From Eledone cirrhosa (taxonomy: Eukaryota), in the NCBI GenBank assembly GCA_964016885.1, contig OZ024741.1, positions 247,628,001 to 247,692,000 on the forward strand: a DNA stretch of 64,000 nucleotides, in the 5' to 3' direction. The translations under genes and the position numbers were made by a program. Positions within the stretch are counted from its first letter, which is position 1. The number at the start of each line of letters is the position of its first letter. The notes beneath the pieces were generated by a model, which made no database searches, was not told the origin of the DNA, and worked only from the letters and a program-made list of their open reading frames with translations. This document shows, piece after piece, positions 1-64,000 of the stretch.

Positions 1-3000
1 CTGGAAATTATCTCCCCTTGGACGGCTGGAAATTATCTCCCCTTGGATGGCTAGATATTACCTCCCCTTGGACGGCTGGAAATTATCTCCCCTTGATTTT
101 TTTTACAAATTATCTCCCCCTGATTTTTTTTTACAAATTATCTCCCCCTGATTTTTTTTTACAAATTATCTCCCCCTGATTTTTGTTTACAAATTATCTC
201 CGCCTGATTTTTTTTTAAAAATTATCTCCCCTTGGACGGCTGGAAATTATCTCCCCTTGGACGGCTAGAAATTACCTCTCCTTGGACGGCTGAAAATTAT
301 CTCCCCTTGGACGGCTGGAAATTATCTCCCCTTGATTTTTTTACAAATTATCTCCCCCTGATTTTTTTTTTACAAATTATCTCCCCCTGATTTTTTTTTT
401 ACAAATTATCTCCCCCTGATTTTTTTACAAATTATCTCCCCCTAATTTTTTTTACAAATTATCTCCGCCTGATTTTTTTAAATATTATCTCTCCTTGGCT
501 GGCGGGAAATTATCTCCCCTAGGACGGCTGGAAATTATCTCCCCTTGGAAGGATGGAAATTATCTCCCCTTGGACGGCTGGAAATTATCTACCCCTGATT
601 TTTTTTACAAATTATCTCCCCCTGATTTTTTTTACAAATTATCTCCCCCTGATTTTTTTTTACAAATTATCTACCCCTGATTTTTTTTACAAATTATCTC
701 CCCCTGATTTTTTTTACAAATTATCTCCCCCTGATTTTTTTTACAAATTATCTCCACCTGATTTTTTTACAAATTATCTCCCCCTGATTTTTTTTACAAA
801 TTATCTTCCTCTGATTTTTTTACAAATTTTCTCCCCTTGGCTGGCTGGAAATTATCTCCCCTTGGACGGCTAGAAATTACCTCTCCTTGGATGGCTGGAA
901 ATTATCTCCCCTTGGACGGCTGGAAATTATCTCCCCTTGGACGGATAGATATTACCTCCCCTTGGACGGCTGGAAATTATCTCCCCTTGATTTTTTTACA
1001 AATTATCTCCCCCTGATTTATTTTACAAATCTGCCAATGATTTTTAAAAAAAAATTATCTCCCCTTCGCTGGCTGGAAATTATCTCCCCTTGGACGCTGG
1101 AAATTATAGCCCCTTGGAGGGCTGGAAATTATCTTCCCTTGGACGGCTGGAAATTATCTCCCCTTGATTTTTTTTACAAATTATCTCCCCCTGATTTTTT
1201 TTACAAATTATCTCCCCCTGATTTTTTTTACAAATTATCTACCCCTGATTTTTTTTACAAATTATCTCCCTCTGATTTTTTTTACAAATTATCTCCCCCT
1301 GGAGATTTTTTTTTACAAATTATCTCCCCCTGATTTTTTTTACAAATTATCTCCCCCTGATTTTTTTTACAAATTATCTACCCCTGATTTTTTTTACAAA
1401 TTATCTCCCCCTGATTTTTTTTTACAAATTATCTCCCCCTGATTTTTTTTACAAATTATCTCCCCCTGATTTTTTTACAAATTATCTCCCCCTGATTTTT
1501 TTTACAATCTCCGCCTGATTTTTTTAAAAATTATCTTCCCTTGGCTGGCTGGAAATTATCTCCCCTTGGACACTGGAAATTATAGCCCCTTGGAGGGCTG
1601 GAAATTATCTTCCCTTGGACGGCTGGAAATTATCTCCCCTTGATTTTTTTTACAAATTATCTCCGCCTGATTTTTTTTTACAAATTATCTCCCCCTGATT
1701 TTTTTTTACAAATTATCTACCCCTGATTTTTTTTTACAAATTATCTCCCCCTGATTTTTTTTACAAATTATCTCCCCCTGATTTTTCTTTTACAAATTAT
1801 CTCCCCCTGATTTTTTTACAAATTATCTCCCCCTGATTTTTTTTACAAATTATCTCCGCCTGATTTTTTTAAATATTATCTTCCCTTGGCTGGCGGGAAA
1901 TTATCTCCCCTTGGACGGCTGGAAATTATCTACCCTTGATTTTCTTTTTACAAATTATCTTCCACTGATTTTTTTTACAAATTATCTCCACCTGATTTTT
2001 TTAAAAATTATCTCCCCTTGGAAGGCTGGAAATTATCTCCCCTTGGCTGGAAATTATCTCCCCTTGGACGGCTAGAAATTATCTCTCTTTGGACGGCTGG
2101 AAATTATCACCCCTTGAGTTTTTTACAAATTATCTCCCCCTGATTTTTTTTACAAATCTCCCAGTGATTTTAAAAAAAAAATTATCTCCCCTTCGCTGGC
2201 TGGAAATTATCTCCCCTTGGACGCTGGAAATTATAGCCCCTTGGAGGGCTGGAAATTATCTTCCCTTGGACGGCTGGAAATTATCTCCCCTTGATTTTTT
2301 TTACAAATTATCTCCCCCTGATTTTTTTTTACAAATTATCTCCCCCTGATTTTTTTTACAACTTATCTGCGCCTGATTTTTTTAAAAAAATTATCTCCCC
2401 TTGGACGGCTGGAAATTATCTCCCCTTGGACGGCTGGAAATTATCTCTCCTTGGACGGCTAGAATTTACCTCTCCTTGGACGGCTGAAAATTATCTCCCC
2501 TTGGACGGCTGGAAATTATCTCCCCTTGATTTTTTTTACAAATTATCTCCCCCTGATTTTTTTTTACAAATTATCTCCCCCTGATTTTTTTACAAATTAT
2601 CTCCCCTTGGCTGGCTGGAAATTATCTCCCCTTGGAGGCTGGAACTTATCTCCCCTTGGACGGCTAGAAATTACCTCTCCTTGGACGGCTGGAAAATATG
2701 TCTCCTTGGACGGCTGGATATTATCTCCCCTTGGACGGCTGGAAATTATCTCCCCTTGGACGGCTGGAAATTATCTCCCCTTGGATGGCTAGATATTACC
2801 TCCCCTTGGACGGCTGGAAATTATCTCCCCTTGATTTTTTTTACAAATTATCTCCCCCTGATTTTTTTTACAAATTATCTCCCCCTGATTTTTTTTTACA
2901 AATTATCTCCCCCTGATTTTTGTTTACAAATTATCTCCGCCTGATTTTTTTAAATATTATCTCTCCTTGGCTGGCGGGAAATTATCTCCCCTTGGACGGC

Positions 3001-9000: not shown

Positions 9001-12000
9001 CCTTGGCTGGCGGGAAATTATCTCCCCTTGGACGGCTGGAAATTATCTCCCCTTGGAAGGATGGAAATTATCTCCCCTTGGACGGCTGGAAATTATCTAC
9101 CCCTGATTTTTTTTACAAATTATCTCCCCCTGATTTTTTTTACAAATTATCTCCCCCTGATTTTTTTTACAAATTATCTACCCCTGATTTTTTTTACAAA
9201 TTATCTCCCCCTGATTTTTTTTACAAATTATCTCCCCCTGATTTTTTTTTTACAAATTATCTCACCCTGATTTTTTTACAAATTATCTCCCCCTGATTTT
9301 TTTTACAAATTATCTCCGCCTGATTTTTTTAAATATTATCTTCCCTTGGCTGGCGGGAAATTATCTCCCCTTGAAGGGCTGAAAATTATCTCCCCTTGGA
9401 CGGCTGGAAATTATCTCCCCTTGATTTTTTTTACAAATTATCTCCCCCTGATTTTTTTTTACAAATTATCTCCCCCTGATTTTTTTTACAAATTATCTCC
9501 CCCTGATTTTTTTTTACAAATTATCTGCCGCTGATTTTTTTTACAAATTATCTCCCCCTGATTTTTTTACAAATTATCTCCCCTTGGCTGGCTGGAAATT
9601 ACCTCCCCTTGGAGGCTGGAATTTATCTCCCCTTGGACGGCTAGAAATTACCTCTCCTTGGACGGCTGGAAAATATGTCTCCTTGGACGGCTGGATATTA
9701 TCTCCCCTTGGACGGCTGGAAATTATCTCCCCTTGGACGGCTGGAAATTATCTCCCCTTGGACGGATAGATATTACCTCCCCTTGGACGGCTGGAAATTA
9801 TCTCCCCTTGGACGGCTGGAAATTATCTCCCCATGGACGGCTGGAAATTATCTCCCCTTGGACGGCTAGAAATTATCTCTCCTTGGACGGCTGAAAATTA
9901 TCTCCCCTTGGACGGCTGGAAATTATCTCCCGTTGGACGGCTGGAAATTATCTCGCCTTGGACGGCTAGAATTTACCTCTCCTTGGACGGCTGAAAATTA
10001 TCTCCCCTTGGACGGCTGGAAATTATCTCCCCTTGATTTTTTTTACAAATTATCTCCCCCTGATTCTTTTTTACAAATTATCTCCCCCTGATTTTTTTTT
10101 ACAAATTATCTCCCCCTGATTTTTTTTTACAAATTATCTCCCCCGGATTTTTTTTTACGAATTATCTCCCCCTGATTTTTTTTTACAAATTATCTCCCCC
10201 TGATTTTTTTTTAGAAATTATCTCCCCCTGATTTTTTTACAAATTATCTCCCCTTGGCTGGCTGGAAATTATCTCCCCTAGGAGGCTGGAACTTATCTCC
10301 CCTTGGACGGCTAGAAATTACCTCTCTTTGGACGGCTGGAAAATATGTCTCCTTGGACGGCTGGATATTATCTCCCCTTGGACGGCTGGAAATTATCTCC
10401 CCTTGGACGGCTGGAAATTATCTCCCCTTGGATGGCTAGATATTACCTCCCTTTGGACGGCTGGAAATTATCTCCCCTTGATTTTTTTTACAAATTATCT
10501 CCCCCTGATTTTTTTTTACAAATTATCTCCCCCGATTTTTTTTTACAAATTATCTCCCCCTGATTTTTTTTTACAAATTATCTCCCCCTGATTTTTGTTT
10601 ACAAATTATCTCCCCTTGGACGGCTGGAAATTATCTCCCCTTGGACGGCTAGAAATTACCTCTCCTTGGACGGCTGAAAATTATCCTCCCTTGGACGGCT
10701 GGAAATTATCTCCCCTTGATTTTTTTACAAATTATCTCCCCCTGATTTTTTTTTTACAAATTATCTCACCCTGATTTTTTTTACAAATTATCTACCCCTG
10801 ATTTTTTTTTACAAATTATCTCCCCCTGATTTTTTTTACAAATTATCTCCCACTGATTTTTTTTTTACAAATTATCTCCCCCTGATTTTTTTACAAATTA
10901 TCTCCCCCTGATTTTTTTTACAAATTATATCCGCCTGATTTTTTTAAATATTATCTCTCCTTGGCTGGCGGGAAATTATCTCCCCTTGGACGGCTGGAAA
11001 TTATCTCCCCTTGGAAGGATGGAAATTATCTCCCCTTGGACGGCTGGAAATTATCTACCCCTGATTTTTTTTACAAATTATCTCCCCCTGATTTTTTTTA
11101 CAAATTATCTCCCCCTGATTTTTTTTTTACAAATTATCTCCCCCTGATTTTTTTACAAATTATCTCCCCCTGATTTTTTTTACAAATTATCTCCGCCTGA
11201 TTTTTTAAAATATTATCTTACCTTGGCTGGCGGGAAATTATATCCCCTTGGACGGCTGAAAATTATCTCCCCTTGGACGGCTGGAAATTATCTCCCCTTG
11301 ATTTTTTTTACAAATTATCTCCCCCTGATTTTTTTTTACAAATTATCTCCCCCTGATTTTTTTTACAAATTATCTCCCCCCTGATTTTTTTACAAATTAT
11401 CTCCCCTTGGCTGGCTGGAAATTATCTCCCCTTGGAGGCTGGAACTTATCTCCCCTTGGACGGCTAGAAATTACCTCTCCTTGGACGGCTGGAAAATATG
11501 TCTCCTTGGACGGCTGGATATTATCTCCCCTTGGACGGCTGGAAATTATCTCCCCTTGGACGGCTGGAAATTATCTCCCCTTGGATGGCTAGATATTACC
11601 TCCCCTTGGACGGCTGGAAATTATCTCCCTTTGATTTTTTTTACAAATTATCTCCCCCTGATTTTTTTTTACAAATTATCTCCCCCTGATTTTTTTTTAC
11701 AAATTATCTCCCCCTGATTTTTGTTTACAAATTATCTCCGCCTGATTTTTTTTTAAAAATTATCTCCCCTTGGACGGCTGGAAATTATCTCCCCTTGGAC
11801 GGCTAGAAATTACCTCTCCTTGGACGGCTGAAAATTATCTCCCCTTGGACGGCTGGAAATTATCTCCCCTTGATTTTTTTACAAATTATCTCCCCCTGAT
11901 TTTTTTTTTACAAATTATCTCCCCCTGATTTTTTTTTACAAATTATCTACCCCTGATTTTTTTTTACAAATTATCTCCCCCTGATTTTTTTTACAAATTA

Positions 12001-15000
12001 TCTCCCCCTGATTTTTTTTTACAAATTATCTCCCCCTGATTTTTTTACAAATTATCTCCCCCTGATTTTTTTTACAAATTGTCTCCGCCTGATTTTTTTA
12101 AATATTATCTCTCCTTGGCTGGCGGGAAATTATCTCCCCTTGGACGGCTGGAAATTATCTCCCCTTGGAAGGATGGAAATTATCTCCCCTTGGACGGCTA
12201 GAAATTATCTCTCTTTGGACGGCTGGAAATTATCACCCCTTGAGTTTTTTACAAATTATCTCCCCCTGATTTTTTTTACAAATCTCCCAGTGATTTTTAA
12301 AAAAAAATTATCTCCCCTTCGCTGGCTGGAAATTATCTCCCCTTGGACGCTGGAAATTATAGCACCTTGGAGGGCTGGAAATTATCTTCCCTTGGACGGC
12401 TGGAAATTATCTCCCCTTGATTTTTTTTACAAATTATCTCCCCCTGATTTTTTTTTACAAATTATCTCCCCCTGATTTTTTTTTACAACTTATCTGCGCC
12501 TGATTTTTTTAAAAAAATTATCTCCCCTTGGACGGCTGGAAATTATCTCCCCTTGGACGGCTGGAAATTATCTCTCCTTGGACGGCTAGAATTTACCTCT
12601 CCTTGGACGGCTGAAAATTATCTCCCCTTGGACGGCTGGAAATTATCTCCCCTTGATTTTTTTTACAAATTATCTCCCCCTGATTTTTTTTTACAAATTA
12701 TCTCCCCCTGATTTTTTTTACAAATTATCTCCCCCTGATTTTTTTTTACAAATTATCTCCCCCTGATTTTTTTTACAAATTATCTCCCCCTGATTTTCTT
12801 ACAAATTATCTCCCCTTGGCTGGCTGGAAATTATCTCCCCTTGGACGGCTGGAAATTATCTCCCATTGGATGGCTAGATATTACCTCCCCTTGGACGGCT
12901 GGAAATTATCTCCCCTTGATTTTTTTTACAAATTATCTCCCCCTGATTTTTTTTACAAATTATCTCCCCCTGATTTTTTTTTACAAATTATCTCCCCCTG
13001 ATTTTTGTTTACAAATTATCTCCGCCTGATTTTTTTTTAAAAATTATCTCCCCTTGGACGGCTGGAAATTATCTCCCCCTGGACGGCTAGAAATTACCTC
13101 TCCTTGGACGGCTGAAAATTATCTCCCCTTGGACGGCTGGAAATTATCTCCCCTTGATTTTTTTACAAATTATCTCCCCCTGATTTTTTTTTTACAAATT
13201 ATCTCCCCCTGATTTTTTTTTTACAAATTATCTCCCCCTGATTTTTTTACAAATTATCTCCCCCTAATTTTTTTTACAAATTATCTCCGCCTGATTTTTT
13301 TAAATATTATCTCTCCTTGGCTGGCGGGAAATTATCTCCCCTTGGACGGCTGGAAATTATCTCCCCTTGGAAGGATGGAAATTATCTCCCCTTGGACGGC
13401 TGGAAATTATCTACCCCTGATTTTTTTTACAAATTATCTCCCCCTGATTTTTTTTACAAATTATCTCCCCCTGATTTTTTTTTACAAATTATCTACCCCT
13501 GATTTTTTTTACAAATTATCTCCCCCTGATTTTTTTTACAAATTATCTCCCCCTGATTTTTTTTTACAAATTATCTACCCCTGATTTTTTTTACAAATTA
13601 TCTCCCCCTGATTTTTTTTTACAAATTATCTCCCCCTGATTTTTTTACAAATTATCTCCCCCTGATTTTTTTTACAATCTCCGCCTGATTTTTTTAAAAA
13701 TTATCTTCTCTTGGCTGGCTGGAAATTATCTCCCCTTGGACACTGGAAATTATAGCCACTTGGAGGGCTGGAAATTATCTTCCCTTGGACGGCTGGAAAT
13801 TATCTCCCCTTGATTTTTTTTACAAATTATCTCCGCCTGATTTTTTTTTACAAATTATCTCCCCCTGATTTTTTTTTACAAATTATCTACCCCTGATTTT
13901 TTTTTACAAATTATCTCCCCCTGATTTTTTTTACAAATTATCTCCCCCTGATTTCTCTTTTACAAATTATCTCCCCCTGATTTTTTTACAAATTATCTCC
14001 CCCTGATTTTTTTTACAAATTATCTCCGCCTGATTTTTTTAAATATTATCTTCCCTTGGCTGGCGGGAAATTATCTCCCCTTGGACGGCTGGAAATTATC
14101 TACCCTTGATTTTCTTTTTACAAATTATCTTCCACTGATTTTTTTTACAAATTATCTCCACCTGATTTTTTAAAAAATTATCTCCCATTGGAAGGCTGGA
14201 AATTATCTCCCCTTGGACGGCTGGAAATTATCTCTCCTTGGACGGCTGGAAATTATCTCTCCTTGGACGGCTAGAATTTACCTCTCCTTGGACGGCTGAA
14301 AATTATCTCCCCTTGGACGGCTGGAAATTACCTCCCCTTGAACGGCTGGAAATTATCTCCCTTGGACGGCTGGAAATTATCTCCCCTTGGATGGCTAGAT
14401 ATTACCTCCCCTTGGACGGCTGGAAATTATCTCTCCTTGGACGGCTAGAATTTACCTCTCCTTGGACGGCTGAAAATTATCTCCCCTTGGACGGCTGGAA
14501 ATTACCTCCCCTTGATTTTTTTTACAAATTATCTCCCCCTGATTTTTTTTTACAAATTATCTCCCCCTGATTTTTTTTTACAAATTATCTCCCCCTGATT
14601 TTTTTTTACAAATTATCTCCCCCTGATTTTTTTTACAAATTATCTCCCCTTGGCTGGCTGGAAATTATCTCCCCTTGGAGGCTGGAACTTATCTCCCCTT
14701 GGACGGCTAGAAATTACCTCTCCTTGGACGGCTGGAAAATATGTCTCCTTGGACGGCTGGAAATTATCTCCCCTTGGACGGCTGGAAATTATCTCCCTTG
14801 GACGGCTGGAAATTATCTCCCCTTGGATGGCTAGATATTACCTCCCCTTGGACGGCTGGAAATTATCTCCCCTTGATTTTTTTTAGAAATTATCTCCCCC
14901 TGATTTTTTTTTACAAATTATCTCCCCCTGATTTTTTATTACAAATTATCTCCCCCTGATTTTTGTTTACAAATTATCTCCGCCTGATTTTTTTTTTAAA

Positions 15001-45000: not shown

Positions 45001-47513
45001 TCTCCCCCTGATTTTTTTACAAATTATCTCCCCCTGATTTTTTTTACAAATTATCTCCGCCTGATTTTTTTAAATATTATCTTCCCTTGGCTGGCGGGAA
45101 ATTATCTCCCCTTGGACGGCTGGAAATTATCTGCCCTTGATTTTCTTTTTACAAATTATCTTCCACTGATTTTTTTTACAAATTATCTCCACCTGATTTT
45201 TTAAAAAATTATCTCCCCTTGGAAGGCTGGAAATTATCTCCCCTTGGACGGCTGGAAATTATCTCCCCTTGGACGGCTAGAAATTATCTGTCCTTGGACG
45301 GCTGAAAATTATCTCCCCTTGGACGGCTGCAAATTATCTCCCCTTGATTTTTTTTACAAATTTTCTCCCCCTGATTTTTTTTACAAATTATCTCCCCCTG
45401 ATTTTTTTACAAATTATCTCCCCCTGATTTTTTTTTACAAATTATCTCCCCCTGATTTTTTTTTACAAATTATCTCCCCCTGATTTTTTTTACAATCTCC
45501 GCCTGATTTTTTTAAAAATTATCTTCCCTTGGCTGGCGGGAAATTATCTCCCCTTGGACGGCTGGAAATTATCTCACCTTGGAAGGATGGAAATTATCTC
45601 CCCTCGGACGGCTGGAAATTATCTCCCCTTGCACGGCTGGAAATTATCTCCCCTTGGCTGGAAATTATCTCCCCTTGGACGGCTAGAAATTATCTCTCTT
45701 TGGACGGCTGCAAATTATCTCCCTTTGATTTTTTTTACAAATTATCTCCCTCTGATTTTTTTTACAAATCTCCCCCTGATTTTTTTAAAAAAATTATCTC
45801 CCCTTCGCTGGCTGGAAATTATCTTCCCTTGGACGGCTGGAAATTATCTCCCCTTGATTTTTTTTACAAATTATCTCCGCCTGATTTTTTTTAAAAATTA
45901 TCTCTCCTTGGACGGCTGGAAATTATCTCCCCTTGATTTTTTTACAAATTATCTCCCCCTGATTTTTTTTTACAAATTATCTCCCCCTGATTTTTTTTTA
46001 CAAATTATCTACCCCTGATTTTTTTTTACAAATTATCTCCCCCTGATTTTTTTTTACAAATTATCTACCCCTGATTTTTTTTACAAATTATCTCCCCCTG
46101 ATTTTTTTTACAAATTATCTCCCCCTGATTTTTTTTTTACAAATTATCTCCCCCTGATTTTTTTACAAATTATCTCCCCCTGATTTTTTTTACAAATTAT
46201 CTCCGCCGGATTTTTTTAAATATTATCTTCCCTTGGCTGGCGGGAAATTATCTCCCCTTGGACGGCTGAAAATTATCTCCCTTTGGACGGCTGGAAATTA
46301 TCTCCCCTTGATTTTTTTTACAAATTATCTCCCCCTGATTTTTTTTTACAAATTATCTCCCCCTGATTTTTTTTACAAATTATCTCCCCCTGATTTTTTT
46401 TTACAAATTATCTCCCCCTGATTTTTTTTACAAATTATCTTCCCCTGATTTTTTTTACAAATTATCTCCCCCTGATTTTTTTTTACAAATTATCTCCCCT
46501 GATTTTTTTACAAATTATCTCCCCCTGATTTTTTTTACAAATTATCTCCGCCTGATTTTTTAAAATATTATCTTCCCTTGGCTGGCGGGAAATTATCTCC
46601 CCTTGGACGGCTGGAAATTATCTGCCCTTGATTTTCTTTTTACAAATTATCTTCCACTGATTTTTTTTACAAATTATCTCCACCTGATTTTTTAAAAAAT
46701 TATCTCCCCTTGGAAGGCTGGAAATTATCTCCCCTTGGCTGGAAATTATCTCCCCTTGGACGGCTAGAAATTATCTCTCTTTGGACGGCTGGAAATTATC
46801 ACCCCTTGAGTTTTTTACAAATTATCTCCCCCTGATTTTTTTTACAAATCTCCCAGTGATTTTTAAAAAAAAATTATCTCCCCTTCGCTGGCTGGAAATT
46901 ATCTCCCCTTGGACGCTGGAAATTATAGCACCTTGGAGGGCTGGAAATTATCTTCCCTTGGACGGCTGGAAATTATCTCCCCTTGACTTTTTTTACAAAT
47001 TATCTCCCCCTGATTTTTTTTTACAAATTATCTCTCCCTGATTTTTTTTTACAACTTATCTGCGCCTGATTTTTTTAAAAAAATTATCTCCCCTTGGACG
47101 GCTGGAAATTATCTCCCCTTGGACGGCTGGAAATTATCTCTCCTTGGACGGCTAGAATTTACCTCTCCTTGGACGGCTGAAAATTATCTCCCCTTGGACG
47201 GCTGGAAATTATCTCCCCTTGATTTTTTTTACAAATTATCTCCCCCTGATTTTTTTTTACAAATTATCTCCCCCTGATTTTTTTTACAAATTATCTCCCC
47301 CTGATTTTTTTTTACAAATTATCTCCCCCTGATTTTTTTTACAAATTATCTCCCCCTGATTTTCTTACAAATTATCTCCCCTTGGCTGGCTGGAAATTAT
47401 CTCCCCTTGGAGGCTGGAACTTATGTCCCCTTGGACGGCTAGAAATTACCTCTCCTTGGACGGCTGGATGATATGTCTCCTTGGACGGCTGGATATTATC
47501 TCCCCTTGGACGG
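21037..47513 (+). repeat. Higher-order repeat copy 2 (26,477 bp = 20,981 base + 3,724 + 1,772 extra)
   Basis: Marker ORF offsets of +26477: 21923->48400, 23043->49520, 15561->42038, 20304->46781. Internal re-runs: 23245->26969 (+3724) and 33105->34877 (+1772). Confidence 0.92.
23073..30584 (+). repeat. Tandem duplication of a ~3.75-kb segment (23073-26835 and 26797-30584)
   Basis: The ORF series 23245..26691 repeats at 26969..30440. The offset is +3724, becoming +3749 after a 25-bp monomer loss near 24545. At ~26836 the sequence jumps back to the CAAATCTCCCAGTG block. Confidence 0.9.
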
Positions 47514-50500: not shown

Positions 50501-53500
50501 ATTTTTTTTACAAATTATCTCCCCCTGATTTTTTTTACAAATTATCTCCCCCTGATTTTTTTTACAAATTATCTACCCCTGATTTCTTTTACAAATTATC
50601 TCCCCCTGATTTTTTTTACAAATTATCTCCCCCTGATTTTTTTTTTACAAATTATCTCCCCCTGATTTTTTTACAAATTATCTCCCCCTGATTTTTTTTA
50701 CAAATTATCTCCGCCTGATTTTTTTAAATATTATCTTCCCTTGGCTGGCTGGAAATTATCTCCCCTTGGACGGCTAGAAATTACCTCTCCTTGGACGGCT
50801 GGAAATTATCTCCCCTTGGACGGCTGGAAATTATCTCCCCTTGGACGGATAGATATTACCTCCCCTTGGACGGCTGGAAATTATCTCCCCTTGATTTTTT
50901 TACAAATTATCTCCCCCTGATTTATTTTACAAATCTCCCAATGATTTTTAAAAAAAAATTATCTCCCCTTCGCTGGCTGGAAATTATCTCCCCTTGGACG
51001 CTGGAAATTATCTCCCCTTGGACGGCTGAAAATTATCTCCCCTTGGACGGCTGGAAATTATCTCCCCTTGATTTTTTTTACAAATTATCTCCCCCTGATT
51101 TTTTTTTACAAATTATCTCCGCCTGATTTTTTTTACAAATTATCTCCCCCTGATTTTTTTTTACAAATTATCTCCCCCTGATTTTTTTACAAATTATCTC
51201 CCCCTGATTTTTTTTACAAATTATCTCCGCCTGATTTTTTAAAATATTATCTTCCCTTGGCTGGCGGGAAATTATCTCCCCTTGGACGGCTGGAAATTAT
51301 CTGCCCTTGATTTTCTTTTTACAAATTATCTTCCACTGATTTTTTTTACAAATTATCTCCACCTGATTTTTTAAAAAATTATCTCCCCTTGGACGGCTGG
51401 AAATTATCTCCCCTTGGACGGCTGGAAATTATCTCCCCTTGGACGGCTGGAAATTATCTCTCCTTGGACGGCTAGAATTTACCTCTCCTTGGACGGCTGA
51501 AAATTATCTCCCCTTGGACGGCTGGAAATTATCTCCCCTTGGACGGCTGGAAATTATCTCCCCTTGGACGGCTGGAAATTATCTCTCCTTGGACGGCTAG
51601 AAATTACCTCTCCTTGGACGGCTGGAAAATATGTCTCCTTGGACGGCTGGATATTATCTCCCCTTGGACGGCTGGAAATTATCTCCCCTTGGACGGCTGG
51701 AAATTATCTCCCCTTGGATGGCTAGATATTACCTCCCCTTGGACGGCTGGAAATTATCTCCCCTTGATTTTTTTACAAATTATCTCCCCCTGATTTTTTT
51801 TTACAAATTATCTCCCCCTGATTTTTTTTTACAAATTATCTCCCCCTGATTTTTGTTTACAAATTATCTCCGCCTGATTTTTTTTTTTAAATTATCTCCC
51901 CTTGGACGGCTGGAAATTATCTCCCCTTGGACGGCTAGAAATTACCTCTCCTTGGACGGCTGAAAATTATCTCCCCTTGGACGGCTGGAAATTATCTCCC
52001 CTTGATTTTTTTACAAATTATCTCCCCCTGATTTTTTTTTTACAAATTATCTCCCCCTGATTTTTTTTTACAAATTATCTACCCCTGATTTTTTTTTACA
52101 AATTATCTCCCCCTGATTTTTTTTTACAAATTATCTACCCCTGATTTTTTTTACAAATTATCTCCCCCTGATTTTTTTTACAAATTATCTCCCCCTGATT
52201 TTTTTTTTACAAATTATCTCCCCCTGATTTTTTTACAAATTATCTCCCCTTGATTTTTTTTTACAACTTATCTGCGCCTGATTTTTTTTAAAAAATTATC
52301 TCCCCTTGGACGGCTGGAAATTATCTCCCCTTGGACGGCTGGAAATTATCTCTCCTTGGACGGCTAGAATTTACCTCTCCTTGGACGGCTGAAAATTATC
52401 TCCCCTTGGACGGCTGGGAATTATCTCCCCTTGATTTTTTTTACAAATTATCTCCTCCTGATTTTTTTTTACAAATTATCTCCCCCTGATTTTTTTTTAC
52501 AAATTATCTCCCCCTGATTTTTTTTTACAAATTATCTCCCCCTGATTTTTTTACAAATTATCTCCCCTTGGCTGGCTGGAAATTATCTCCCCTTGGAGCC
52601 TGGAACTTATGTCCCCTTGGACGGCTAGAAATTACCTCTCCTTGGACGGCTGGAAAATATGTCTCCTTGGACGGCTGGATATTATCTCCCCTTGGACGGC
52701 TGGAAATTATCTCCCCTTGGACGGCTGGAAATTATCTCCCCTTGGATGGCTAGATATTACCTCCCCTTGGACGGCTGGAAATTATCTCCCCTTGATTTTT
52801 TTTACAAATTATCTCCCCCTGATTTTTTTTTACAAATTATCTCCCCCTGATTTTTTTTTACAAATTATCTCCCCCTGATTTTTGTTTACAAATTATCTCC
52901 GCCTATTTTTTTTTAAAAATTATCTCCCCTTGGACGGCTGGAAATTATCTCCCCTTGGACGGCTAGAAATTACCTCTCCTTGGACGGCTGAAAATTATCT
53001 CCCCTTGGACGGCTGGAAATTATCTCCCCTTGATTTTTTTACAAATTATCTCCCCCTGATTTTTTTTTTACAAATTATCTCCCCCTGATTTTTTTTTTAC
53101 AAATTATCTCCCCCTGATTTTTTTACAAATTATCTCCCCCTAATTTTTTTTACAAATTATCTCCGCCTGATTTTTTTAAATATTATCTCTCCTTGGCTGG
53201 CGGGAAATTATCTCACCTTGGACGGCTGGAAATTATCTCCCCTTGGAAGAATGGAAATTATCTCCCCTTGGACGGCTGGAAATTATCTACCCCTGATTTT
53301 TTTTACAAATTATCTCCCCCTGATTTTTTTTACAAATTATCTCCCCCTGATTTTTTTTTACAAATTATCTACCCCTGATTTTTTTTACAAATTATCTCCC
53401 CCTGATTTTTTTTACAAATTATCTCCCCCTGATTTTTTTTTACAAATTATCTACCCCTGATTTTTTTTACAAATTATCTCCCCCTGATTTTTTTTTACAA

Positions 53501-56500
53501 ATTATCTCCCCCTGATTTTTTTACAAATTATCTCCCCCTGATTTTTTTTACAATCTCCGCCTGATTTTTTTAAAAATTATCTTCTCTTGGCTGGCTGGAA
53601 ATTATCTCCCCTTGGACACTGGAAATTATAGCCACTTGGAGGGCTGGAAATTATCTTCCCTTGGACGGCTGGAAATTATCTCCCCTTGATTTTTTTTACA
53701 AATTATCTCCGCCTGATTTTTTTTTACAAATTATCTCCCCCTGATTTTTTTTTACAAATTATCTACCCCTGATTTTTTTTTACAAATTATCTCCCCCTGA
53801 TTTTTTTTACAAATTATCTCCCCCTGATTTCTCTTTTACAAATTATCTCCCCCTGATTTTTTTACAAATTATCTCCCCCTGATTTTTTTTACAAATTATC
53901 TCCGCCTGATTTTTTTAAATATTATCTTCCCTTGGCTGGCGGGAAATTATCTCCCCTTGGACGGCTGGAAATTATCTACCCTTGATTTTCTTTTTACAAA
54001 TTATCTTCCACTGATTTTTTTTACAAATTATCTCCACCTGATTTTTTAAAAAATTATCTCCCCTTGGAAGGCTGGAAATTATCTCCCCTTGGCTGGAAAT
54101 TATCTCCCCTTGGACGGCTAGAAATTATCTCTCTTTGGACGGCTGGAAATTATCACCCCTTGAGTTTTTTACAAATTATCTCCCCCTGATTTTTTTACAA
54201 ATTATCTCCCCCTGATTTTTTTTACAAATTATCTCCGCCTGATTTTTTTAAATATTATCTTCCCTTGGCTGGCGGGAAATTATCTCCCCTTGGACGGCTG
54301 AAAATTATCTCCCCTTGGACGGCTGGAAATTATCTCCCCTTGATTTTTTTTACAAATTATCTCCCCCTGATTTTTTTTTACAAATTATCTCCCCCTGATT
54401 TTTTTACAAATTATCTCCCCTTGGACGCTGGAAATTATAGCCCCTTGGAGGGCTGGAAATTATCTTCCCTTGGACGGCTGCAAATTATCTCCCCTTGATT
54501 TTTTTTACAAATTATCTCCCCCTGATTTTTTTTACAAATTATCTCCCCCTGATTTTTTTTACAAATTATCTACCCCTAATTTTTTTTACAAATTATCTCC
54601 CCCTGATTTTTTTTTACAAATTATCTCCCCCTGATTTTTTTTTACAAATTATCTCCCCCTGATTTTTTTACAAATTATCTCCCCCTGATTTTTTTTACAA
54701 TCTCCGCCTGATTTTTTTAAAAATTATCTTCTCTTGGCTGGCTGGAAATTATCTCCCCTTGGACACTGGAAATTATAGCCACTTGGAGGGCTGGAAATTA
54801 TCTTCCCTTGGACGGCTGGAAATTATCACCCCTTGATTTTTTTTACAAATTATCTCCGCCTGATTTTTTTTTACAAATTATCTCCCCCTGATTTTTTTTT
54901 ACAAATTATCTAACCCTGATTTTTTTTTACAAATTATCTCCCCCTGATTTTTTTTACAAATTATCTCCCCCTGATTTCTCTTTTACAAATTATCTCCCCC
55001 TGATTTTTTTACAAATTATCTCCCCCTGATTTTTTTTACAAATTATCTCCGCCTGATTTTTTTAAATATTATCTTCCCTTGGCTGGCGGGAAATTATCTC
55101 CCCTTGGACGGCTGGAAATTATCTACCCTTGATTTTCTTTTTACAAATTATCTTCCACTGATTTTTTTTACAAATTATCTCCACCTGATTTTTTAAAAAA
55201 TTATCTCCCCTTGGAAGGCTGGAAATTATCTCCCCTTGGCTGGAAATTATCTCCCCTTGGACGGCTAGAAATTATCTCTCTTTGGACGGCTGGAAATTAT
55301 CACCCCTTGAGCTTTTTACAAATTATCTCCCCCTGATTTTTTTTACAAATCTCCCTGTGATTTTTTAAAAAAAATTATCTCCCCTTCGCTGGCTGGAAAT
55401 TATCTCCCCTTGGACGCTGGAAATTATAGCCCCTTGGAGGGCTGGAAATTATCTTCCCTTGGACGGCTGGAAATTATCTCCCCTTGATTTTTTTTACAAA
55501 TTATCTCCCCCTGATTTTTTTTTACAAATTATCTCCCCCTGATTTTTTTTACAACTTATCTGCGCCTGATTTTTTTTTAAAAATTATCTCCCCTTGGACG
55601 GCTGGAAATTATCTCCCCTTGGACTGCTGGAAATTATCTCTCCTTGGACGGCTAGAATTTACCTCTCCTTGGACGGCTGAAAATTATCTCCCCTTGGACG
55701 GCTGGAAATTATCTCCCCTTGATTTTTTTTACAAATTATCTCCCCCTGATTTTTTTTTACAAATTATCTCCCCCTGATTTTTTTTTACAAATTATCTCCC
55801 CCTGATTTTTTTTTACAAATTATCTACCCCTGATTTTCTTTTACAAATTATCTCCCCTTGGCTGGCTGGAAATTATCTCCCCTTGGAGGCTGGAACTTAT
55901 CTCCCCTTGGACGGCTAGAAATTACCTCTCCTTGGTCGGCTGGAAAATATGTCTCCTTGGACGGCTGGATATTATCTCCCCTTGGACGGCTGGAAATTAT
56001 CTCCCCTTGGACGGCTGAAAATTATCTCCCCTTGATTTTTTTTACAAATTATCTCCCCCTGATTTTTTTTTACAAATTATCTCCCCCTGATTTTTGTTTA
56101 CAAATTATCTCCGCCTGATTTTTTAAAAAAATTATCTCCCCTTGGACGGATAGAAATTACCTCTCCTTGGACGGCTGAAAATTATCTCCCCTTTGACGGC
56201 TGGAAATTATCTCCCCTTGATTTTTTTACAAATTATCTCCCCCTGATTTTTTTTTTACAAATTATCTCCCCCTGATTTTTTTTTACAAATTATCTACCCC
56301 TGATTTTTTTTTACAAATTATCTCCCCCTGATTTTTTTTACAAATTATCTCCCCCTGATTTTTTTTTACAAATTATCTCCCCCTGATTTTTTTACAAATT
56401 ATCTCCCCCTGATTTTTTTTACAAATTATCTCCGCCTGATTTTTTTAAATATTATCTCTCCTTGGCTGGCGGGAAATTATCTCCCCTTGGACGGCTGGAA

Positions 56501-59500
56501 ATTATCTCCCCTTGGAAGGATGGAAATTATCTCCCCTTGGACGGCTGGAAATTATCTACCCCTGATTTTTTTTACAAATTATCTCCCCCTGATTTTTTTT
56601 ACAAATTATCTCCCCCTGATTTTTTTTACAAATTATCTACCCCTGATTTTTTTTACAAATTATCTCCCCCTGATTTTTTTTACAAATTATCTCCCCCTGA
56701 TTTTTTTTTTACAAATTATCTCACCCTGATTTTTTTACAAATTATCTCCCCCTGATTTTTTTTACAAATTATCTCCGCCTGATTTTTTTAAATATTATCT
56801 TCCCTTGGCTGGCGGGAAATTATCTCCCCTTGAAGGGCTGAAAATTATCTCCCCTTGGACGGCTGGAAATTATCTCCCCTTGATTTTTTTTACAAATTAT
56901 CTCCCCCTGATTTTTTTTTACAAATTATCTCCCCCTGATTTTTTTTACAAATTATCTCCCCCTGATTTTTTTTTACAAATTATCTGCCGCTGATTTTTTT
57001 TACAAATTATCTCCCCCTGATTTTTTTACAAATTATCTCCCCTTGGCTGGCTGGAAATTACCTCCCCTTGGAGGCTGGAATTTATCTCCCCTTGGACGGC
57101 TAGAAATTACCTCTCCTTGGACGGCTGGAAAATATGTCTCCTTGGACGGCTGGATATTATCTCCCCTTGGACGGCTGGAAATTATCTCCCCTTGGACGGC
57201 TGGAAATTATCTCCCCTTGGACGGATAGATATTACCTCCCCTTGGACGGCTGGAAATTATCTCCCCTTGGACGGCTGGAAATTATCTCCCCATGGACGGC
57301 TGGAAATTATCTCCCCTTGGACGGCTAGAAATTATCTCTCCTTGGACGGCTGAAAATTATCTCCCCTTGGACGGCTGGAAATTATCTCCCGTTGGACGGC
57401 TGGAAATTATCTCGCCTTGGACGGCTAGAATTTACCTCTCCTTGGACGGCTGAAAATTATCTCCCCTTGGACGGCTGGAAATTATCTCCCCTTGATTTTT
57501 TTTACAAATTATCTCCCCCTGATTTTTTTTTACAAATTATCTCCCCCTGATTTTTTTTTACAAATTATCTCCCCCTGATTTTTTTTTACAAATTATCTCC
57601 CCCTGATTTTTTTTACAAATTATCTCCCCCCTGATTTTTTAACAAATTATCTCCCCTTGGCTGGCTGGAAATTATCTCCCCTTGGAGGCTGGAACTTATC
57701 TCCCCTTGGACGGCTAGAAATTACCTCTCCTTGGACGGCTGGAAAATATGTCTCCTTGGACGGCTGGATATTATCTCCCTTTGGACGGCTGGAAATTATC
57801 TCCCCTTGGACGGCTGGAAATTATCTCCCCTTGGATGGCTAGATATTACCTCCCCTTGGACGGCTGGAAATTATCTCCCTTTGATTTTTTTTACAAATTA
57901 TCTCCCCCTGATTTTTTTTTACAAATTATCTCCCCCTGATTTTTTTTTACAAATTATCTACCCCTGATTTTTTTTTACAAATTATCTCCCCCTGATTTTT
58001 TTTACAAATTATCTCCCCCTGATTTTTTTTTACAAATTATCTCCCCCTGATTTTTTTACAAATTATCTCCCCCTGATTTTTTTTACAAATTATCTCCGCC
58101 TGATTTTTTTAAATATTATCTCTCCTTGGCTGGCGGGAAATTATCTCCCCTTGGACGGCTGGAAATTATCTCCCCTTGGAAGGATGGAAATTATCTCCCC
58201 TTGGACGGCTGGAAATTATCTACCCCTGATTTTTTTTACAAATTATCTCCCCCTGATTTTTTTTACAAATTATCTCCCCCTGATTTTTTTTACAAATTAT
58301 CTACCCCTGATTTTTTTTACAAATTATCTCCCCCTGATTTTTTTTACAAATTATCTCCCCCTGATTTTTTTTTTACAAATTATCTCACCCTGATTTTTTT
58401 ACAAATTATCTCCCCCTGATTTTTTTTACAAATTATCTCCGCCTGATTTTTTTAAATATTATCTTCCCTTGGCTGGCGAGAAATTATCTCCCCTTGAAGG
58501 GCTGAAAATTATCTCCCCTTGGACGGCTGGAAATTATCTCCCCTTGATTTTTTTTACAAATTATCTCCCCCTGATTTTTTTTTACAAATTATCTCCCCCT
58601 GATTTTTTTTACAAATTATCTCCCCCTGATTTTTTTTTACAAATTATCTGCCGCTGATTTTTTTTACAAATTATCTCCCCCTGATTTTTTTACAAATTAT
58701 CTCCCCTTGGCTGGCTGGAAATTACCTCCCCTTGGAGGCTGGAATTTATCTCCCCTTGGACGGCTAGAAATTACCTCTCCTTGGACGGCTGGAAAATATG
58801 TCTCCTTGGACGGCTGGATATTATCTCCCCTTGGACGGCTGGAAATTATCTCCCCTTGGACGGCTGGAAATTATCTCCCCTTGGACGGATAGATATTACC
58901 TCCCCTTGGACGGCTGGAAATTATCTCCCCTTGGACGGCTGGAAATTATCTCCCCATGGACGGCTGGAAATTATCTCCCCTTGGACGGCTAGAAATTATC
59001 TCTCCTTGGACGGCTGAAAATTATCTCCCCTTGGACGGCTGGAAATTATCTCCCGTTGGACGGCTGGAAATTATCTCGCCTTGGACGGCTAGAATTTACC
59101 TCTCCTTGGACGGCTGAAAATTATCTCCCCTTGGACGGCTGGAAATTATCTCCCCTTGATTTTTTTTACAAATTATCTCCCCCTGATTTTTTTTTACAAA
59201 TTATCTCCCCCTGATTTTTTTTTACAAATTATCTCCCCCTGATTTTTTTTTACAAATTATCTCCCCCTGATTTTTTTTACAAATTATCTCCCCCCTGATT
59301 TTTTAACAAATTATCTCCCCTTGGCTGGCTGGAAATTATCTCCCCTTGGAGGCTGGAACTTATCTCCCCTTGGACGGCTAGAAATTACCTCTCCTTGGAC
59401 GGCTGGAAAATATGTCTCCTTGGACGGCTGGATATTATCTCCCTTTGGACGGCTGGAAATTATCTCCCCTTGGACGGCTGGAAATTATCTCCCCTTGGAT

Positions 59501-62500
59501 GGCTAGATATTACCTCCCCTTGGACGGCTGGAAATTATCTCCCTTTGATTTTTTTTACAAATTATCTCCCCCTGATTTTTTTTTACAAATTATCTCCCCC
59601 TGATTTTTTTTTACAAATTATCTACCCCTGATTTTTTTTTACAAATTATCTCCCCCTGATTTTTTTTACAAATTATCTCCCCCTGATTTTTTTTTACAAA
59701 TTATCTCCCCCTGATTTTTTTACAAATTATCTCCCCCTGATTTTTTTTACAAATTATCTCCGCCTGATTTTTTTAAATATTATCTCTCCTTGGCTGGCGG
59801 GAAATTATCTCCCCTTGGACGGCTGGAAATTATCTCCCCTTGGAAGGATGGAAATTATTTCCCCTTGGACGGCTGGAAATTATCTACCCCTGATTTTTTT
59901 TACAAATTATCTCCCCCTGATTTTTTTTACAAATTATCTCCCCCTGATTTTTTTTACAAATTATCTACCCCTGATTTTTTTTACAAATTATCTCCCCCTG
60001 ATTTTTTTTACAAATTATCTCCCCCTGATTTTTTTTTTACAAATTATCTCACCCTGATTTTTTTACAAATTATCTCCCCCTGATTTTTTTTACAAATTAT
60101 CTCCGCCTGATTTTTTTAAATATTATCTTCCCTTGGCTGGCGAGAAATTATCTCCCCTTGAAGGGCTGAAAATTATCTCCCCTTGGACGGCTGGAAATTA
60201 TCTCCCCTTGATTTTTTTTACAAATTATCTCCCCCTGATTTTTTTTTACAAATTATCTCCCCCTGATTTTTTTTACAAATTATCTCCCCCTGATTTTTTT
60301 TTACAAATTATCTGCCGCTGATTTTTTTTACAAATTATCTCCCCCTGATTTTTTTACAAATTATCTCCCCTTGGCTGGCTGGAAATTACCTCCCCTTGGA
60401 GGCTGGAATTTATCTCCCCTTGGACGGCTAGAAATTACCTCTCCTTGGACGGCTGGAAAATATGTCTCCTTGGACGGCTGGATATTATCTCCCCTTGGAC
60501 GGCTGGAAATTATCTCCCCTTGGACGGCTGGAAATTATCTCCCCTTGGACGGATAGATATTACCTCCCCTTGGACGGCTGGAAATTATCTCCCCTTGGAC
60601 GGCTGGAAATTATCTCCCCATGGACGGCTGGAAATTATCTCCCCTTGGACGGCTAGAAATTATCTCTCCTTGGACGGCTGAAAATTATCTCCCCTTGGAC
60701 GGCTGGAAATTATCTCCCGTTGGACGGCTGGAAATTATCTCGCCTTGGACGGCTAGAATTTACCTCTCCTTGGACGGCTGAAAATTATCTCCCCTTGGAC
60801 GGCTGGAAATTATCTCCCCTTGATTTTTTTTACAAATTATCTCCCCCTGATTCTTTTTTACAAATTATCTCCCCCTGATTTTTTTTTACAAATTATCTCC
60901 CCCTGATTTTTTTTTACAAATTATCTCCCCCGGATTTTTTTTTACGAATTATCTCCCCCTGATTTTTTTTTACAAATTATCTCCCCCTGATTTTTTTTTA
61001 CAAATTATCTCCCCCTGATTTTTTTACAAATTATCTCCCCTTGGCTGGCTGGAAATTATCTCCCCTAGGAGGCTGGAACTTATCTCCCCTTGGACGGCTA
61101 GAAATTACCTCTCTTTGGACGGCTGGAAAATATGTCTCCTTGGACGGCTGGATATTATCTCCCCTTGGACGGCTGGAAATTATCTCCCCTTGGACGGCTG
61201 GAAATTATCTCCCCTTGGATGGCTAGATATTACCTCCCTTTGGACGGCTGGAAATTATCTCCCCTTGATTTTTTTTACAAATTATCTCCCCCTGATTTTT
61301 TTTTACAAATTATCTCCCCCGATTTTTTTTTACAAATTATCTCCCCCTGATTTTTTTTTACAAATTATCTCCCCCTGATTTTTGTTTACAAATTATCTCC
61401 CCTTGGACGGCTGGAAATTATCTCCCCTTGGACGGCTAGAAATTACCTCTCCTTGGACGGCTGAAAATTATCCTCCCTTGGACGGCTGGAAATTATCTCC
61501 CCTTGATTTTTTTACAAATTATCTCCCCCTGATTTTTTTTTTACAAATTATCTCACCCTGATTTTTTTTACAAATTATCTACCCCTGATTTTTTTTTACA
61601 AATTATCTCCCCCTGATTTTTTTTACAAATTATCTCCCACTGATTTTTTTTTTACAAATTATCTCCCCCTGATTTTTTTACAAATTATCTCCCCCTGATT
61701 TTTTTTACAAATTATATCCGCCTGATTTTTTTAAATATTATCTCTCCTTGGCTGGCGGGAAATTATCTCCCCTTGGACGGCTGGAAATTATCTCCCCTTG
61801 GAAGGATGGAAATTATCTCCCCTTGGACGGCTGGAAATTATCTACCCCTGATTTTTTTTACAAATTATCTCCCCCTGATTTTTTTTACAAATTATCTCCC
61901 CCTGATTTTTTTTTTACAAATTATCTCCCCCTGATTTTTTTACAAATTATCTCCCCCTGATTTTTTTTACAAATTATCTCCGCCTGATTTTTTAAAATAT
62001 TATCTTACCTTGGCTGGCGGGAAATTATATCCCCTTGGACGGCTGAAAATTATCTCCCCTTGGACGGCTGGAAATTATCTCCCCTTGATTTTTTTTACAA
62101 ATTATCTCCCCCTGATTTTTTTTTACAAATTATCTCCCCCTGATTTTTTTTACAAATTATCTCCCCCCTGATTTTTTTACAAATTATCTCCCCTTGGCTG
62201 GCTGGAAATTATCTCCCCTTGGAGGCTGGAACTTATCTCCCCTTGGACGGCTAGAAATTACCTCTCCTTGGACGGCTGGAAAATATGTCTCCTTGGACGG
62301 CTGGATATTATCTCCCCTTGGACGGCTGGAAATTATCTCCCCTTGGACGGCTGGAAATTATCTCCCCTTGGATGGCTAGATATTACCTCCCCTTGGACGG
62401 CTGGAAATTATCTCCCTTTGATTTTTTTTACAAATTATCTCCCCCTGATTTTTTTTTACAAATTATCTCCCCCTGATTTTTTTTTACAAATTATCTCCCC

Positions 62501-64000
62501 CTGATTTTTGTTTACAAATTATCTCCGCCTGATTTTTTTTAAAAAATTATCTCCCCTTGGACGGCTGGAAATTATCTCCCCTTGGACGGCTAGAAATTAC
62601 CTCTCCTTGGACGGCTGAAAATTATCTCCCCTTGGACGGCTGGAAATTATCTCCCCTTGATTTTTTTACAAATTATCTCCCCCTGATTTTTTTTTTACAA
62701 ATTATCTCCCCCTGATTTTTTTTTACAAATTATCTACCCCTGATTTTTTTTTACAAATTATCTCCCCCTGATTTTTTTTACAAATTATCTCCCCCTGATT
62801 TTTTTTTACAAATTATCTCCCCCTGATTTTTTTACAAATTATCTCCCCCTGATTTTTTTTACAAATTGTCTCCGCCTGATTTTTTTAAATATTATCTCTC
62901 CTTGGCTGGCGGGAAATTATCTCCCCTTGGACGGCTGGAAATTATCTCCCCTTGGAAGGATGGAAATTATCTCCCCTTGGACGGCTAGAAATTATCTCTC
63001 TTTGGACGGCTGGAAATTATCACCCCTTGAGTTTTTTACAAATTATCTCCCCCTGATTTTTTTTACAAATCTCCCAGTGATTTTTAAAAAAAAATTATCT
63101 CCCCTTCGCTGGCTGGAAATTATCTCCCCTTGGACGCTGGAAATTATAGCACCTTGGAGGGCTGGAAATTATCTTCCCTTGGACGGCTGGAAATTATCTC
63201 CCCTTGATTTTTTTTACAAATTATCTCCCCCTGATTTTTTTTTACAAATTATCTCCCCCTGATTTTTTTTTACAACTTATCTGCGCCTGATTTTTTTAAA
63301 AAAATTATCTCCCCTTGGACGGCTGGAAATTATCTCCCCTTGGACGGCTGGAAATTATCTCTCCTTGGACGGCTAGAATTTACCTCTCCTTGGACGGCTG
63401 AAAATTATCTCCCCTTGGACGGCTGGAAATTATCTCCCCTTGATTTTTTTTACAAATTATCTCCCCCTGATTTTTTTTTACAAATTATCTCCCCCTGATT
63501 TTTTTTACAAATTATCTCCCCCTGATTTTTTTTTACAAATTATCTCCCCCTGATTTTTTTTACAAATTATCTCCCCCTGATTTTCTTACAAATTATCTCC
63601 CCTTGGCTGGCTGGAAATTATCTCCCCTTGGACGGCTGGAAATTATCTCCCATTGGATGGCTAGATATTACCTCCCCTTGGACGGCTGGAAATTATCTCC
63701 CCTTGATTTTTTTTACAAATTATCTCCCCCTGATTTTTTTTACAAATTATCTCCCCCTGATTTTTTTTTACAAATTATCTCCCCCTGATTTTTGTTTACA
63801 AATTATCTCCGCCTGATTTTTTTTTAAAAATTATCTCCCCTTGGACGGCTGGAAATTATCTCCCCCTGGACGGCTAGAAATTACCTCTCCTTGGACGGCT
63901 GAAAATTATCTCCCCTTGGACGGCTGGAAATTATCTCCCCCTGATTTTTTTACAAATTATCTCCCCCTAATTTTTTTTACAAATTATCTCCGCCTGATTT
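47514..64000 (+). repeat. Higher-order repeat copy 3 (partial; carries 2 x 1,664 bp extra)
   Basis: Marker ORFs 36732->61041 (+24309 = 20981 + 2x1664) and 39293->63603 (+24310). Confidence 0.9.
56250..60850 (+). repeat. Local 1,664-bp tandem repeat (~2.8 copies)
   Basis: ORFs 56462/58126/59790, 57043/58707/60371 and 57657/59321 are spaced exactly 1664 apart. Confidence 0.9.

What the first reader, a model, noticed from the sequence alone, without database searches (positions are those of the whole stretch)
1..64000. Binary core-plus-linker satellite: one 16-bp core with two alternative, unrelated linkers
Seen: a constant core AAATTATCTCCCC(C/T)TG is followed either by GC-rich GACGGCTGG or by AT-rich A(T)nAC. 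The two types form runs of 1 to ~18 monomers (A-run ~9590-10030; B-run ~1160-1530), so the array reads as a two-letter string. The core is retained across both types while the linkers share no similarity. Inference: the core is either a constrained protein-binding element or the recombination handle that let two minisatellites interleave. I do not recognise this as a described family, but I cannot search.
Basis: partly seen in the sequence, partly recalled or inferred. Interest (0 to 1): 0.75.

Follow-up and report, generated by a model that had tools for sequence, protein, structure and literature searches.

The report
Two-unit octopus satellite with sister array
This window is part of an estimated 17-million-base octopus repeat in which two short units alternate in runs; the part the units share is no better preserved than the rest, the pattern likely arose once from an older spacer-interrupted repeat and was then copied to the middles of the four giant chromosomes, and a centromere-related role there is possible but untested.

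Summary
The window is 2,456 monomers: 1,161 of type A (25 bp) and 1,295 of type B (26-29 bp). They share a 16-bp segment and form runs (446 runs against 1,224 expected). The interpretation largely fails. The joints are not fresh crossovers: the same marked first-B, last-B and first-A monomers recur in all arrays sampled. The true unit is an A(n)B(m) module of about 290 bp with elastic run lengths, later duplicated in blocks up to 26.5 kb. The host is an octopod. The family totals about 17 Mb, lying mid-chromosome on the four giant chromosomes and on C21, and is likely present in two related species. A sister array on C1 has pure A-like runs plus a ~300-bp AT-rich spacer. It joins the binary array in register and shares its junction marker, so it likely preserves the ancestral layout. 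The closest known organisation is Tribolium madens TmSat1/TmSat2. I found no paper with the motif; Dfam and Repbase were not available. No earlier scan note covers this family.

The parts
1..64000 (+). Binary satellite array, gap-free and in one orientation; part of a 2.7-Mb block at G000:C2:245.586-248.283 Mb
5..29 (+). Consensus A monomer (25 bp): shared core at 5-20, GC-rich linker at 21-29 with one CpG
   Evidence: 285 exact copies in the window
609..635 (+). Consensus inner B monomer (27 bp): shared core at 609-624 with C at position 14, T-run linker at 625-635 (T-run length 7-10)
   Evidence: 240 exact copies
9571..10019 (+). Longest A-run (18 monomers); five more of the same length occur in duplicated blocks
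1151..1527 (+). Longest B-run (14 monomers)
9995..10046 (+). Typical A-to-B joint: the first B keeps the A-type T at core position 14 (198 of 223 joints in the window)
9307..9357 (+). Typical B-to-A joint: marked last B (position-12 change, ends in an A-run) followed by marked first A (sister-family base at position 18)
11120..51028 (+). Large higher-order duplication: 11120-24551 recurs 26,477 bp downstream with 5 mismatches in 13,432 bp
56248..60852 (+). Local 1,664-bp higher-order repeat

Best explanation
The window is a non-coding octopod satellite built from A(n)B(m) modules of about 290 bp with fixed, marked junction monomers, which likely descends from one ancestral A-run-plus-AT-rich-spacer repeat whose spacer was likely replaced once by a T-rich unit (B). 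The shared core is then a leftover of that single origin, not a selected element. Steps. (1) Shown: a 25-bp A-like minisatellite exists without B, in runs of 4-49 separated by a 100-420-bp AT-rich spacer that starts right after a core (sister array, C1). (2) Inferred: in one module the spacer was replaced by, or collapsed into, a short T-rich linker, creating a core-plus-T-run monomer with one A-to-B and one B-to-A joint. (3) Inferred from run-length variation with fixed ends: slippage or unequal exchange inside runs grew and shrank A-runs and B-runs, and position 18 was homogenised in inner A copies but not in the junction copy. (4) Shown as near-identical blocks: duplications of 1.1-26.5 kb and more amplified modules to megabases. 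(5) Inferred: inter-chromosomal exchange spread the family among mid-chromosome satellite clusters, mainly on the four giant chromosomes. Its likely role is bulk pericentromeric heterochromatin rather than the pan-centromeric sequence.
For: No core constraint. Positional grammar in the window: last B lacks the inner ending in 176 of 222 vs 4 of 1,071 other B; first A carries the junction linker in 159 of 222 vs 35 of 937. The same pattern holds on C1, C2, C3, both C4 arrays, C21 and unplaced contigs. A-to-B joints have T14 in 719 of 811, against about 2 in 15 expected from uniform crossovers in the core; 85 of 94 in the first 26.5 kb alone. The sister consensus differs from A only at position 18. 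The sister sample holds 0 B-linkers, and 0 of 3,945 binary A monomers carry the sister linker. It joins the binary array in register without a gap at C1:252.024 Mb and C1:251.771 Mb. First A monomers of binary modules keep the sister base at position 18 in 508 of 782, against 30 of 2,795 other A. In both families the first monomer after the interruption is specially marked: 89 of 107 vs 264 of 1,921 lack the CpG in the sister. The sister is more diverse: pi 0.121 vs 0.093 for A and 0.067 for B. Arrays lie at 37-60% of chromosome length among other satellites.
Against: The B linker is no closer to the spacer than to shuffled spacers (152 of 300 shuffles scored as high), so its source is unproven. 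Direction is not shown: higher diversity may reflect slower homogenisation, and the sister could derive from the first-A variant of the binary array. The sister is small (747 exact matches), and the 100 listed places are all on C1. Common alleles are somewhat rarer in the A core than in the A linker at the 0.5% threshold (16 of 48 vs 16 of 27, p 0.051; p 0.20 and 0.78 at 1% and 2%), and core positions 1 and 6 vary 1.5% or less in all three monomer types, so a small constrained subset is not excluded. Pooled counts are not independent, because block duplications repeat them. There are no chromatin data.
Confidence: 0.6

Rival explanations
1. The binary satellite is itself the functional centromere DNA of the four giant, probably fused, chromosomes and of C21; the alternation of GC-rich and T-tract blocks, not the core sequence, is what is maintained.
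For: Multi-megabase, young and homogeneous arrays near mid-chromosome on all four giant chromosomes. The A fraction is 0.46-0.54 in all 8 groups sampled. Telomere-type arrays face each other on either side of the C2 array, at 243.0 and 251.17-251.19 Mb. Likely kept in two related species.
Against: The two rare-variant searches listed in full (18 and 75 hits) hit no other chromosome-scale contig, so most chromosomes seem to lack it. C4 has two arrays 65 Mb apart. No dyad symmetry: folding z-scores +3.2 to -1.1 against shuffles. A different AT-rich satellite lies beside the C1 and C4 arrays, and an earlier unreviewed note proposes an AT-rich family on 12 of 27 chromosomes as the centromere. A constant A fraction is also what recent common descent gives. 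None of 20 further flank probes showed telomere-type repeats.
Confidence: 0.2
2. The binary array is ancestral, and the sister array arose from it on C1 by expansion of the first-A variant and gain of a spacer.
For: The binary family is far larger and more widespread, and is likely shared with related species. The in-register joint does not show direction.
Against: The sister monomer is one step from both the consensus A and the first-A variant, which are two steps from each other. This route needs a T-to-C gain that creates a CpG. The sister is more diverse.
Confidence: 0.15
3. One reading: two independent minisatellites shared a constrained, protein-bound core and interleaved repeatedly by recombination in it.
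For: The linkers are unrelated. An A-like repeat exists without B. 89 of 811 A-to-B joints have the B-type core, 41 of them without the one clonal marker, so secondary exchanges in the core do occur. The core holds a GATA-type hexamer (motif recalled, not tested), intact in 80% of A and 91% of B.
Against: The core is as variable as the linkers. 719 of 811 joints contradict crossovers spread over the core. No pure-B array was found in any locus decomposed.
Confidence: 0.08
4. Linker B was captured from a neighbouring ~13-bp T-run satellite by microhomology-mediated exchange rather than derived from the spacer.
For: That satellite lies on the 5' side of the arrays on C2 (245.2-245.586 Mb) and C3 (168.0-168.7 Mb) in the same strand polarity, and has variable T-runs that resemble linker B by eye.
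Against: On C2 the contact is across an assembly gap; on C3 a 9-bp satellite lies between them. The sequences are low-complexity and no significance test was run on this pair.
Confidence: 0.12

Closest known systems
Tribolium madens TmSat1/TmSat2 (PMC13081366; abstract and sections 7 and 8 read; supplements not read)
   Same: Two related repeats intermingled over multi-megabase putative (peri)centromeric regions, with two conserved transition zones built from modified subunits and a varying number of repeats between them; shared across contigs.
   Different: There the units are 225 and 704 bp and the arrays are kilobases long (medians 14 and 2.2 kb), with macro-dyad inversions. Here the units are 25-29 bp, runs are 1-18 monomers, the shared part is a 16-bp segment of each monomer, and no inversion occurs in the window. 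The C2 strand switch lies across an assembly gap.
Tribolium madens TmSat4 with (AC)n spacers (PMC13081366, section 8)
   Same: Satellite regularly interrupted by a microsatellite-like spacer of variable length, as in the sister array on C1.
   Different: There a single 692-bp monomer lies between spacers; here a run of 4-49 short monomers does.
[quoted passage not shown]
   Same: A rare microhomology-mediated event makes a hybrid joint that is then copied to many loci, so joints fall into few types.
   Different: Those satellites are unrelated long monomers in small euchromatic clusters, joined by 4-7 bp of microhomology; here both units share 16 bp and alternate hundreds of times per 64 kb.
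Minisatellite variant-repeat arrays such as human MS32, and the Drosophila dodeca satellite (recalled; only a search listing for dodeca seen)
   Same: Short tandem units of two types that read as a binary string.
   Different: There the types differ by a base or a small indel (recalled); here they differ by an unrelated 9-13-bp linker.

Membership tests
Satellite DNA with higher-order structure | Head-to-tail array of megabase size | tested here: met
   2.7-Mb block around the window; about 16.7 Mb estimated from 56,233 genome matches vs 215 in the window
Satellite DNA with higher-order structure | Near-identical multi-monomer blocks | tested here: met
   26,477-bp shift with 5 mismatches in 13,432 bp; other shifts from 1.1 to 51 kb. 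The spacings vary, so these are serial duplications, not one fixed unit.
Satellite DNA with higher-order structure | Non-coding | tested here: met
   Longest stop-free frame 196 aa over six frames; transcription not tested
Intermingled two-satellite arrays of the TmSat1/TmSat2 kind (works like; not homologous) | Two related repeats with conserved transition monomers and variable copy number between them | tested here: met
Intermingled two-satellite arrays of the TmSat1/TmSat2 kind (works like; not homologous) | Macro-dyad symmetry with conserved inversion sites | tested here: not met
   One orientation through the window; the C2 switch is at a 200-N gap and about 210 kb of other sequence; the C3 switch was only probed
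Functional centromeric satellite | Present once on every chromosome | tested here: not met
   Seen on 5 chromosome-scale contigs and 3 unplaced contigs; two searches listed in full, one listed 100 of 198; the assembly may be incomplete
Functional centromeric satellite | CENP-A binding or primary-constriction position | not testable with these tools
   No chromatin or cytogenetic data
Functional centromeric satellite | Dyad symmetry or non-B folding potential | tested here: not met
   Six 150-base folds no more stable than shuffles; 0 G-quadruplex motifs
Satellite with a constrained protein-binding box (CENP-B-box kind, recalled) | Box less variable than the rest of the monomer | tested here: not met
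   one borderline test, p 0.051
A described repeat family (Dfam, Repbase) | Match to a library entry | not testable with these tools

The most novel reading that the evidence does not exclude
This satellite marks, and expanded at, the fusion-point centromeres of the four giant chromosomes of an octopod; what is conserved is the ~290-bp alternation of GC-rich and T-tract blocks, and the ancestral spacer-interrupted form survives attached to it on C1. It would be a first sequence-defined octopod centromere marker with its birth record intact.
Probability: 0.2. Interest if true: 0.65.

Novelty: new variant of a known kind. Interest (0 to 1): 0.37.

Why it matters
Ten literature searches found no described octopod centromeric satellite sequence. 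A 17-Mb family concentrated at the middles of four giant chromosomes gives a ready FISH and CUT&Tag probe for octopod centromeres and for recent chromosome fusions. The sister array joined in register, and the marked junction monomers, make it an unusually readable case of how a composite satellite is born, homogenised and spread. The special claim of a constrained core does not hold, which lowers the surprise.

Tried and rejected
Core constraint: tested per site on all copies, on distinct variants, by base class and by common alleles; rejected. Megabase palindrome on C2: the strand switch falls at a scaffold gap, so it is not evidence. Non-B DNA, G-quadruplex and coding role: no support. Broad cross-species conservation: one search lists 14 coded organisms, but only 4 non-host runs were laid on the satellite (X5-X8) and 3 of them on a control gene. 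B linker from the spacer by sequence likeness: not significant. The sister-monomer statistics were spoiled by a faulty spacer pattern and redone (2,028 monomers kept, 98 dropped below 64% identity); the alignment and linker-count results do not depend on that fault except for using a shortened spacer. A rare-variant search for the neighbouring AT-rich satellite found only its own copy. The protein atlas held no entry. Sequence look-up of earlier notes gave unrelated hits, and none lay near the window. Where the remaining 647 unlisted sister matches lie is left open.

Full report
1. Observation. The window is one gap-free tandem array in a single orientation. Decomposition against two monomers gives 2,456 units, 1,161 A (25 bp) and 1,295 B (26-29 bp, T-run 7-10). 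A-runs are 50% GC and B-runs 28%. The linkers are unrelated. The description is right.

2. The core is not constrained. Substitution per site in core vs linker: window A 0.051 vs 0.055, B 0.036 vs 0.020; distinct variants A 0.066 vs 0.085, B 0.074 vs 0.073. In 8,081 monomers pooled from the window and 38 loci on five chromosomes and two unplaced contigs: A 0.046 vs 0.057 (p 0.41), B 0.040 vs 0.031 (p 0.64); only 53% of A and 62% of B have a perfect core. Against this reading: one of six common-allele tests is borderline (p 0.051), A/T sites of the B core vary less than those of the B linker (0.008 vs 0.023), linkers carry more indels, and core positions 1 and 6 are quiet in all families. Copies are not independent because of block duplications.

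3. The array has a fixed grammar. Position 14 is T in A, C inside B-runs, T in 719 of 811 A-to-B joints and T in 802 of 806 B-to-A joints. Repeated crossovers spread over the core would put C in most A-to-B joints, so most joints descend from very few events. Of the 89 C-type joints, 47 share a second marker and look clonal, and 41 look like later exchanges. Last B monomers and first A monomers are marked variants (176 of 222 vs 4 of 1,071; 159 of 222 vs 35 of 937), and the same holds in all eight groups sampled. Modules average 288 bp, and recurring module types are shared between chromosomes. Above that lie near-identical duplications, the largest in the window at 26,477 bp.

4. Host and position. 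The window is G000:C2:247.63-247.69 Mb in a 3.0-Gb genome with four contigs of 443, 416, 379 and 379 Mb and much smaller others. A protocadherin at C2:240 Mb is 89-90% identical to Octopus and Argonauta proteins, so the host is an octopod. Its closest Octopus vulgaris hit lies on a contig of 84.7 Mb, and octopods typically have 30 chromosomes with a trend to fusion (10.1101/2025.05.16.652989, passages), so the giants are likely fusions (inference). Arrays were found at C1 251.19-252.2 Mb, C2 245.59-251.13, C3 162.70-167.89, C4 about 140.1 and 205.5-206.4, C21 17.55-17.70, and on C123, C1058 and C1453. Scaling exact matches gives about 16.7 Mb. Several array ends are assembly gaps. The real ends seen abut a 6.1-kb macro-repeat, a 7-bp satellite and a 9-bp satellite. 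The C2 strand switch is across a gap.

5. A sister array. On C1 the binary array runs in register, without a gap, into an array of pure A-like runs (median 18 monomers) separated by an AT-rich spacer of 100-420 bp that begins right after a core. The joint occurs twice, 253.7 kb apart. The sister consensus differs from A only at position 18. The first A of binary modules keeps the sister base (508 of 782 vs 30 of 2,795), the first monomer after the spacer is likewise marked (89 of 107 vs 264 of 1,921), and the sister is more diverse. B-runs therefore occupy the spacer's place. That B came from the spacer is inferred from position only; sequence likeness was not significant. An orphan copy of one run plus the start of the spacer lies at C1:231.58 Mb.

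6. Other species. Runs X5 and X6 (organisms B and C, one study) hold A, B and the joint at summed depths up to 41,295 and 10,976. They cover the protocadherin in 28 of 30 bins with differences from the host run X1, and hold only 0.32 and 0.24 of the sampled words against 0.72 for X1. A variant from X6, a weak two-contig consensus, has 0 matches in G000. The family is thus likely shared with two relatives; carry-over is not fully excluded, and X1 may be the assembly's own source. X7 lacks the gene and is not counted.

7. Mechanism. Best reading (0.6): a single replacement of the spacer by a T-rich linker, slippage within runs, homogenisation of inner copies, block duplication and inter-chromosomal spread, giving pericentromeric bulk. 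The sister array, the grammar and the duplications are shown; order, direction and role are inferred. Rivals: functional centromere of the fused chromosomes (0.2), reverse direction of descent (0.15), capture of B from a neighbouring T-run satellite (0.12, differing from the best reading only in the source of B), and constrained core with repeated interleaving (0.08). Folding, G-quadruplex and reading-frame tests gave nothing special.

8. Known systems. It works like Tribolium madens TmSat1/TmSat2, two related repeats intermingled with conserved transition zones and elastic copy number (PMC13081366, abstract and sections 7-8), and like the copied hybrid joints of 1.688/Rsp-like (PMC7403614, passages). 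It is homologous to neither by anything I tested, and lacks the macro-dyads. Octopod C-bands are mainly centromeric, and that paper never uses the word satellite (PMC6160780, passages); molluscs have CENP-A (PMC12210499, passages). The motif search gave 0 papers. Searches (listings only, unless named above) showed no description of this family. No supplements were read; repeat tables in genome-paper supplements, Dfam or Repbase could already hold it.

9. Verdict. A real, apparently undescribed octopod satellite, a new variant of a known kind. The value lies in the readable history and in a testable link to centromeres and fusions. Interest 0.37.

Noticed in passing
G000:C1:251.77-252.2 Mb (L175-L184, L198): Sister composite satellite: A-like runs plus an AT-rich spacer, module median 759 bp, duplicated together with the binary array as a block of about 254 kb.
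   Followed up: yes
G000:C1:231.58 Mb (L193): Isolated ~680-bp copy of one sister run with the start of its spacer, in unique DNA; likely an excised and reinserted piece.
   Followed up: partly
G000:C2:243.0 Mb (L023) and 251.17-251.19 Mb (L099, L083): Interstitial telomere-type (TTAGGG) arrays in opposite orientations on either side of the satellite cluster, as expected at a fusion site; gaps lie between them.
   Followed up: partly
G000:C2:245.07-245.14, 248.28-248.33, 250.5-250.7 Mb; C4:140.0, 142.5, 204.7-205.06 Mb (L128-L152): A ~6.1-kb macro-repeat shared by C2 and C4, sitting next to and inside the binary arrays.
   Followed up: partly
L028:1-3080 (C1:251.185 Mb) and L172 (C4:206.7 Mb): Very AT-rich satellite with a 91-bp period near two of the arrays (63% of 14-mers shared); possibly the centromere candidate of note e1-10311123, identity not checked.
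   Followed up: partly
L058-L059, L068-L072, L088-L090 (C2:245.2-245.586 Mb); L106, L208, L209 (C3:168.0-168.7 Mb): A ~13-bp T-run satellite of several hundred kb on the 5' side of the arrays on two chromosomes.
   Followed up: partly
L109, L110, L115-L117, L155, L156 (C3); L096, L121, L123, L192 (C2, C4); L022, L221; L019; L020, L021: Further satellites with 9-bp, 7-bp, ~228-bp, ~5-bp and ~16-bp units cluster around the arrays; the 9-bp one flanks both C3 blocks in mirror image, which could be a real inversion or retained haplotypes.
   Followed up: no
L024:1-750 minus strand (C2:240.0 Mb): Protocadherin exon about 5.6 Mb from the array, placing protocadherin sequence on a 416-Mb chromosome.
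   Followed up: partly
window, linker A CpG: The CpG in linker A shows no excess of C-to-T or G-to-A change (62 and 34 of 3,945 copies, fewer than C-to-A and C-to-G), hinting at low methylation.
   Followed up: no
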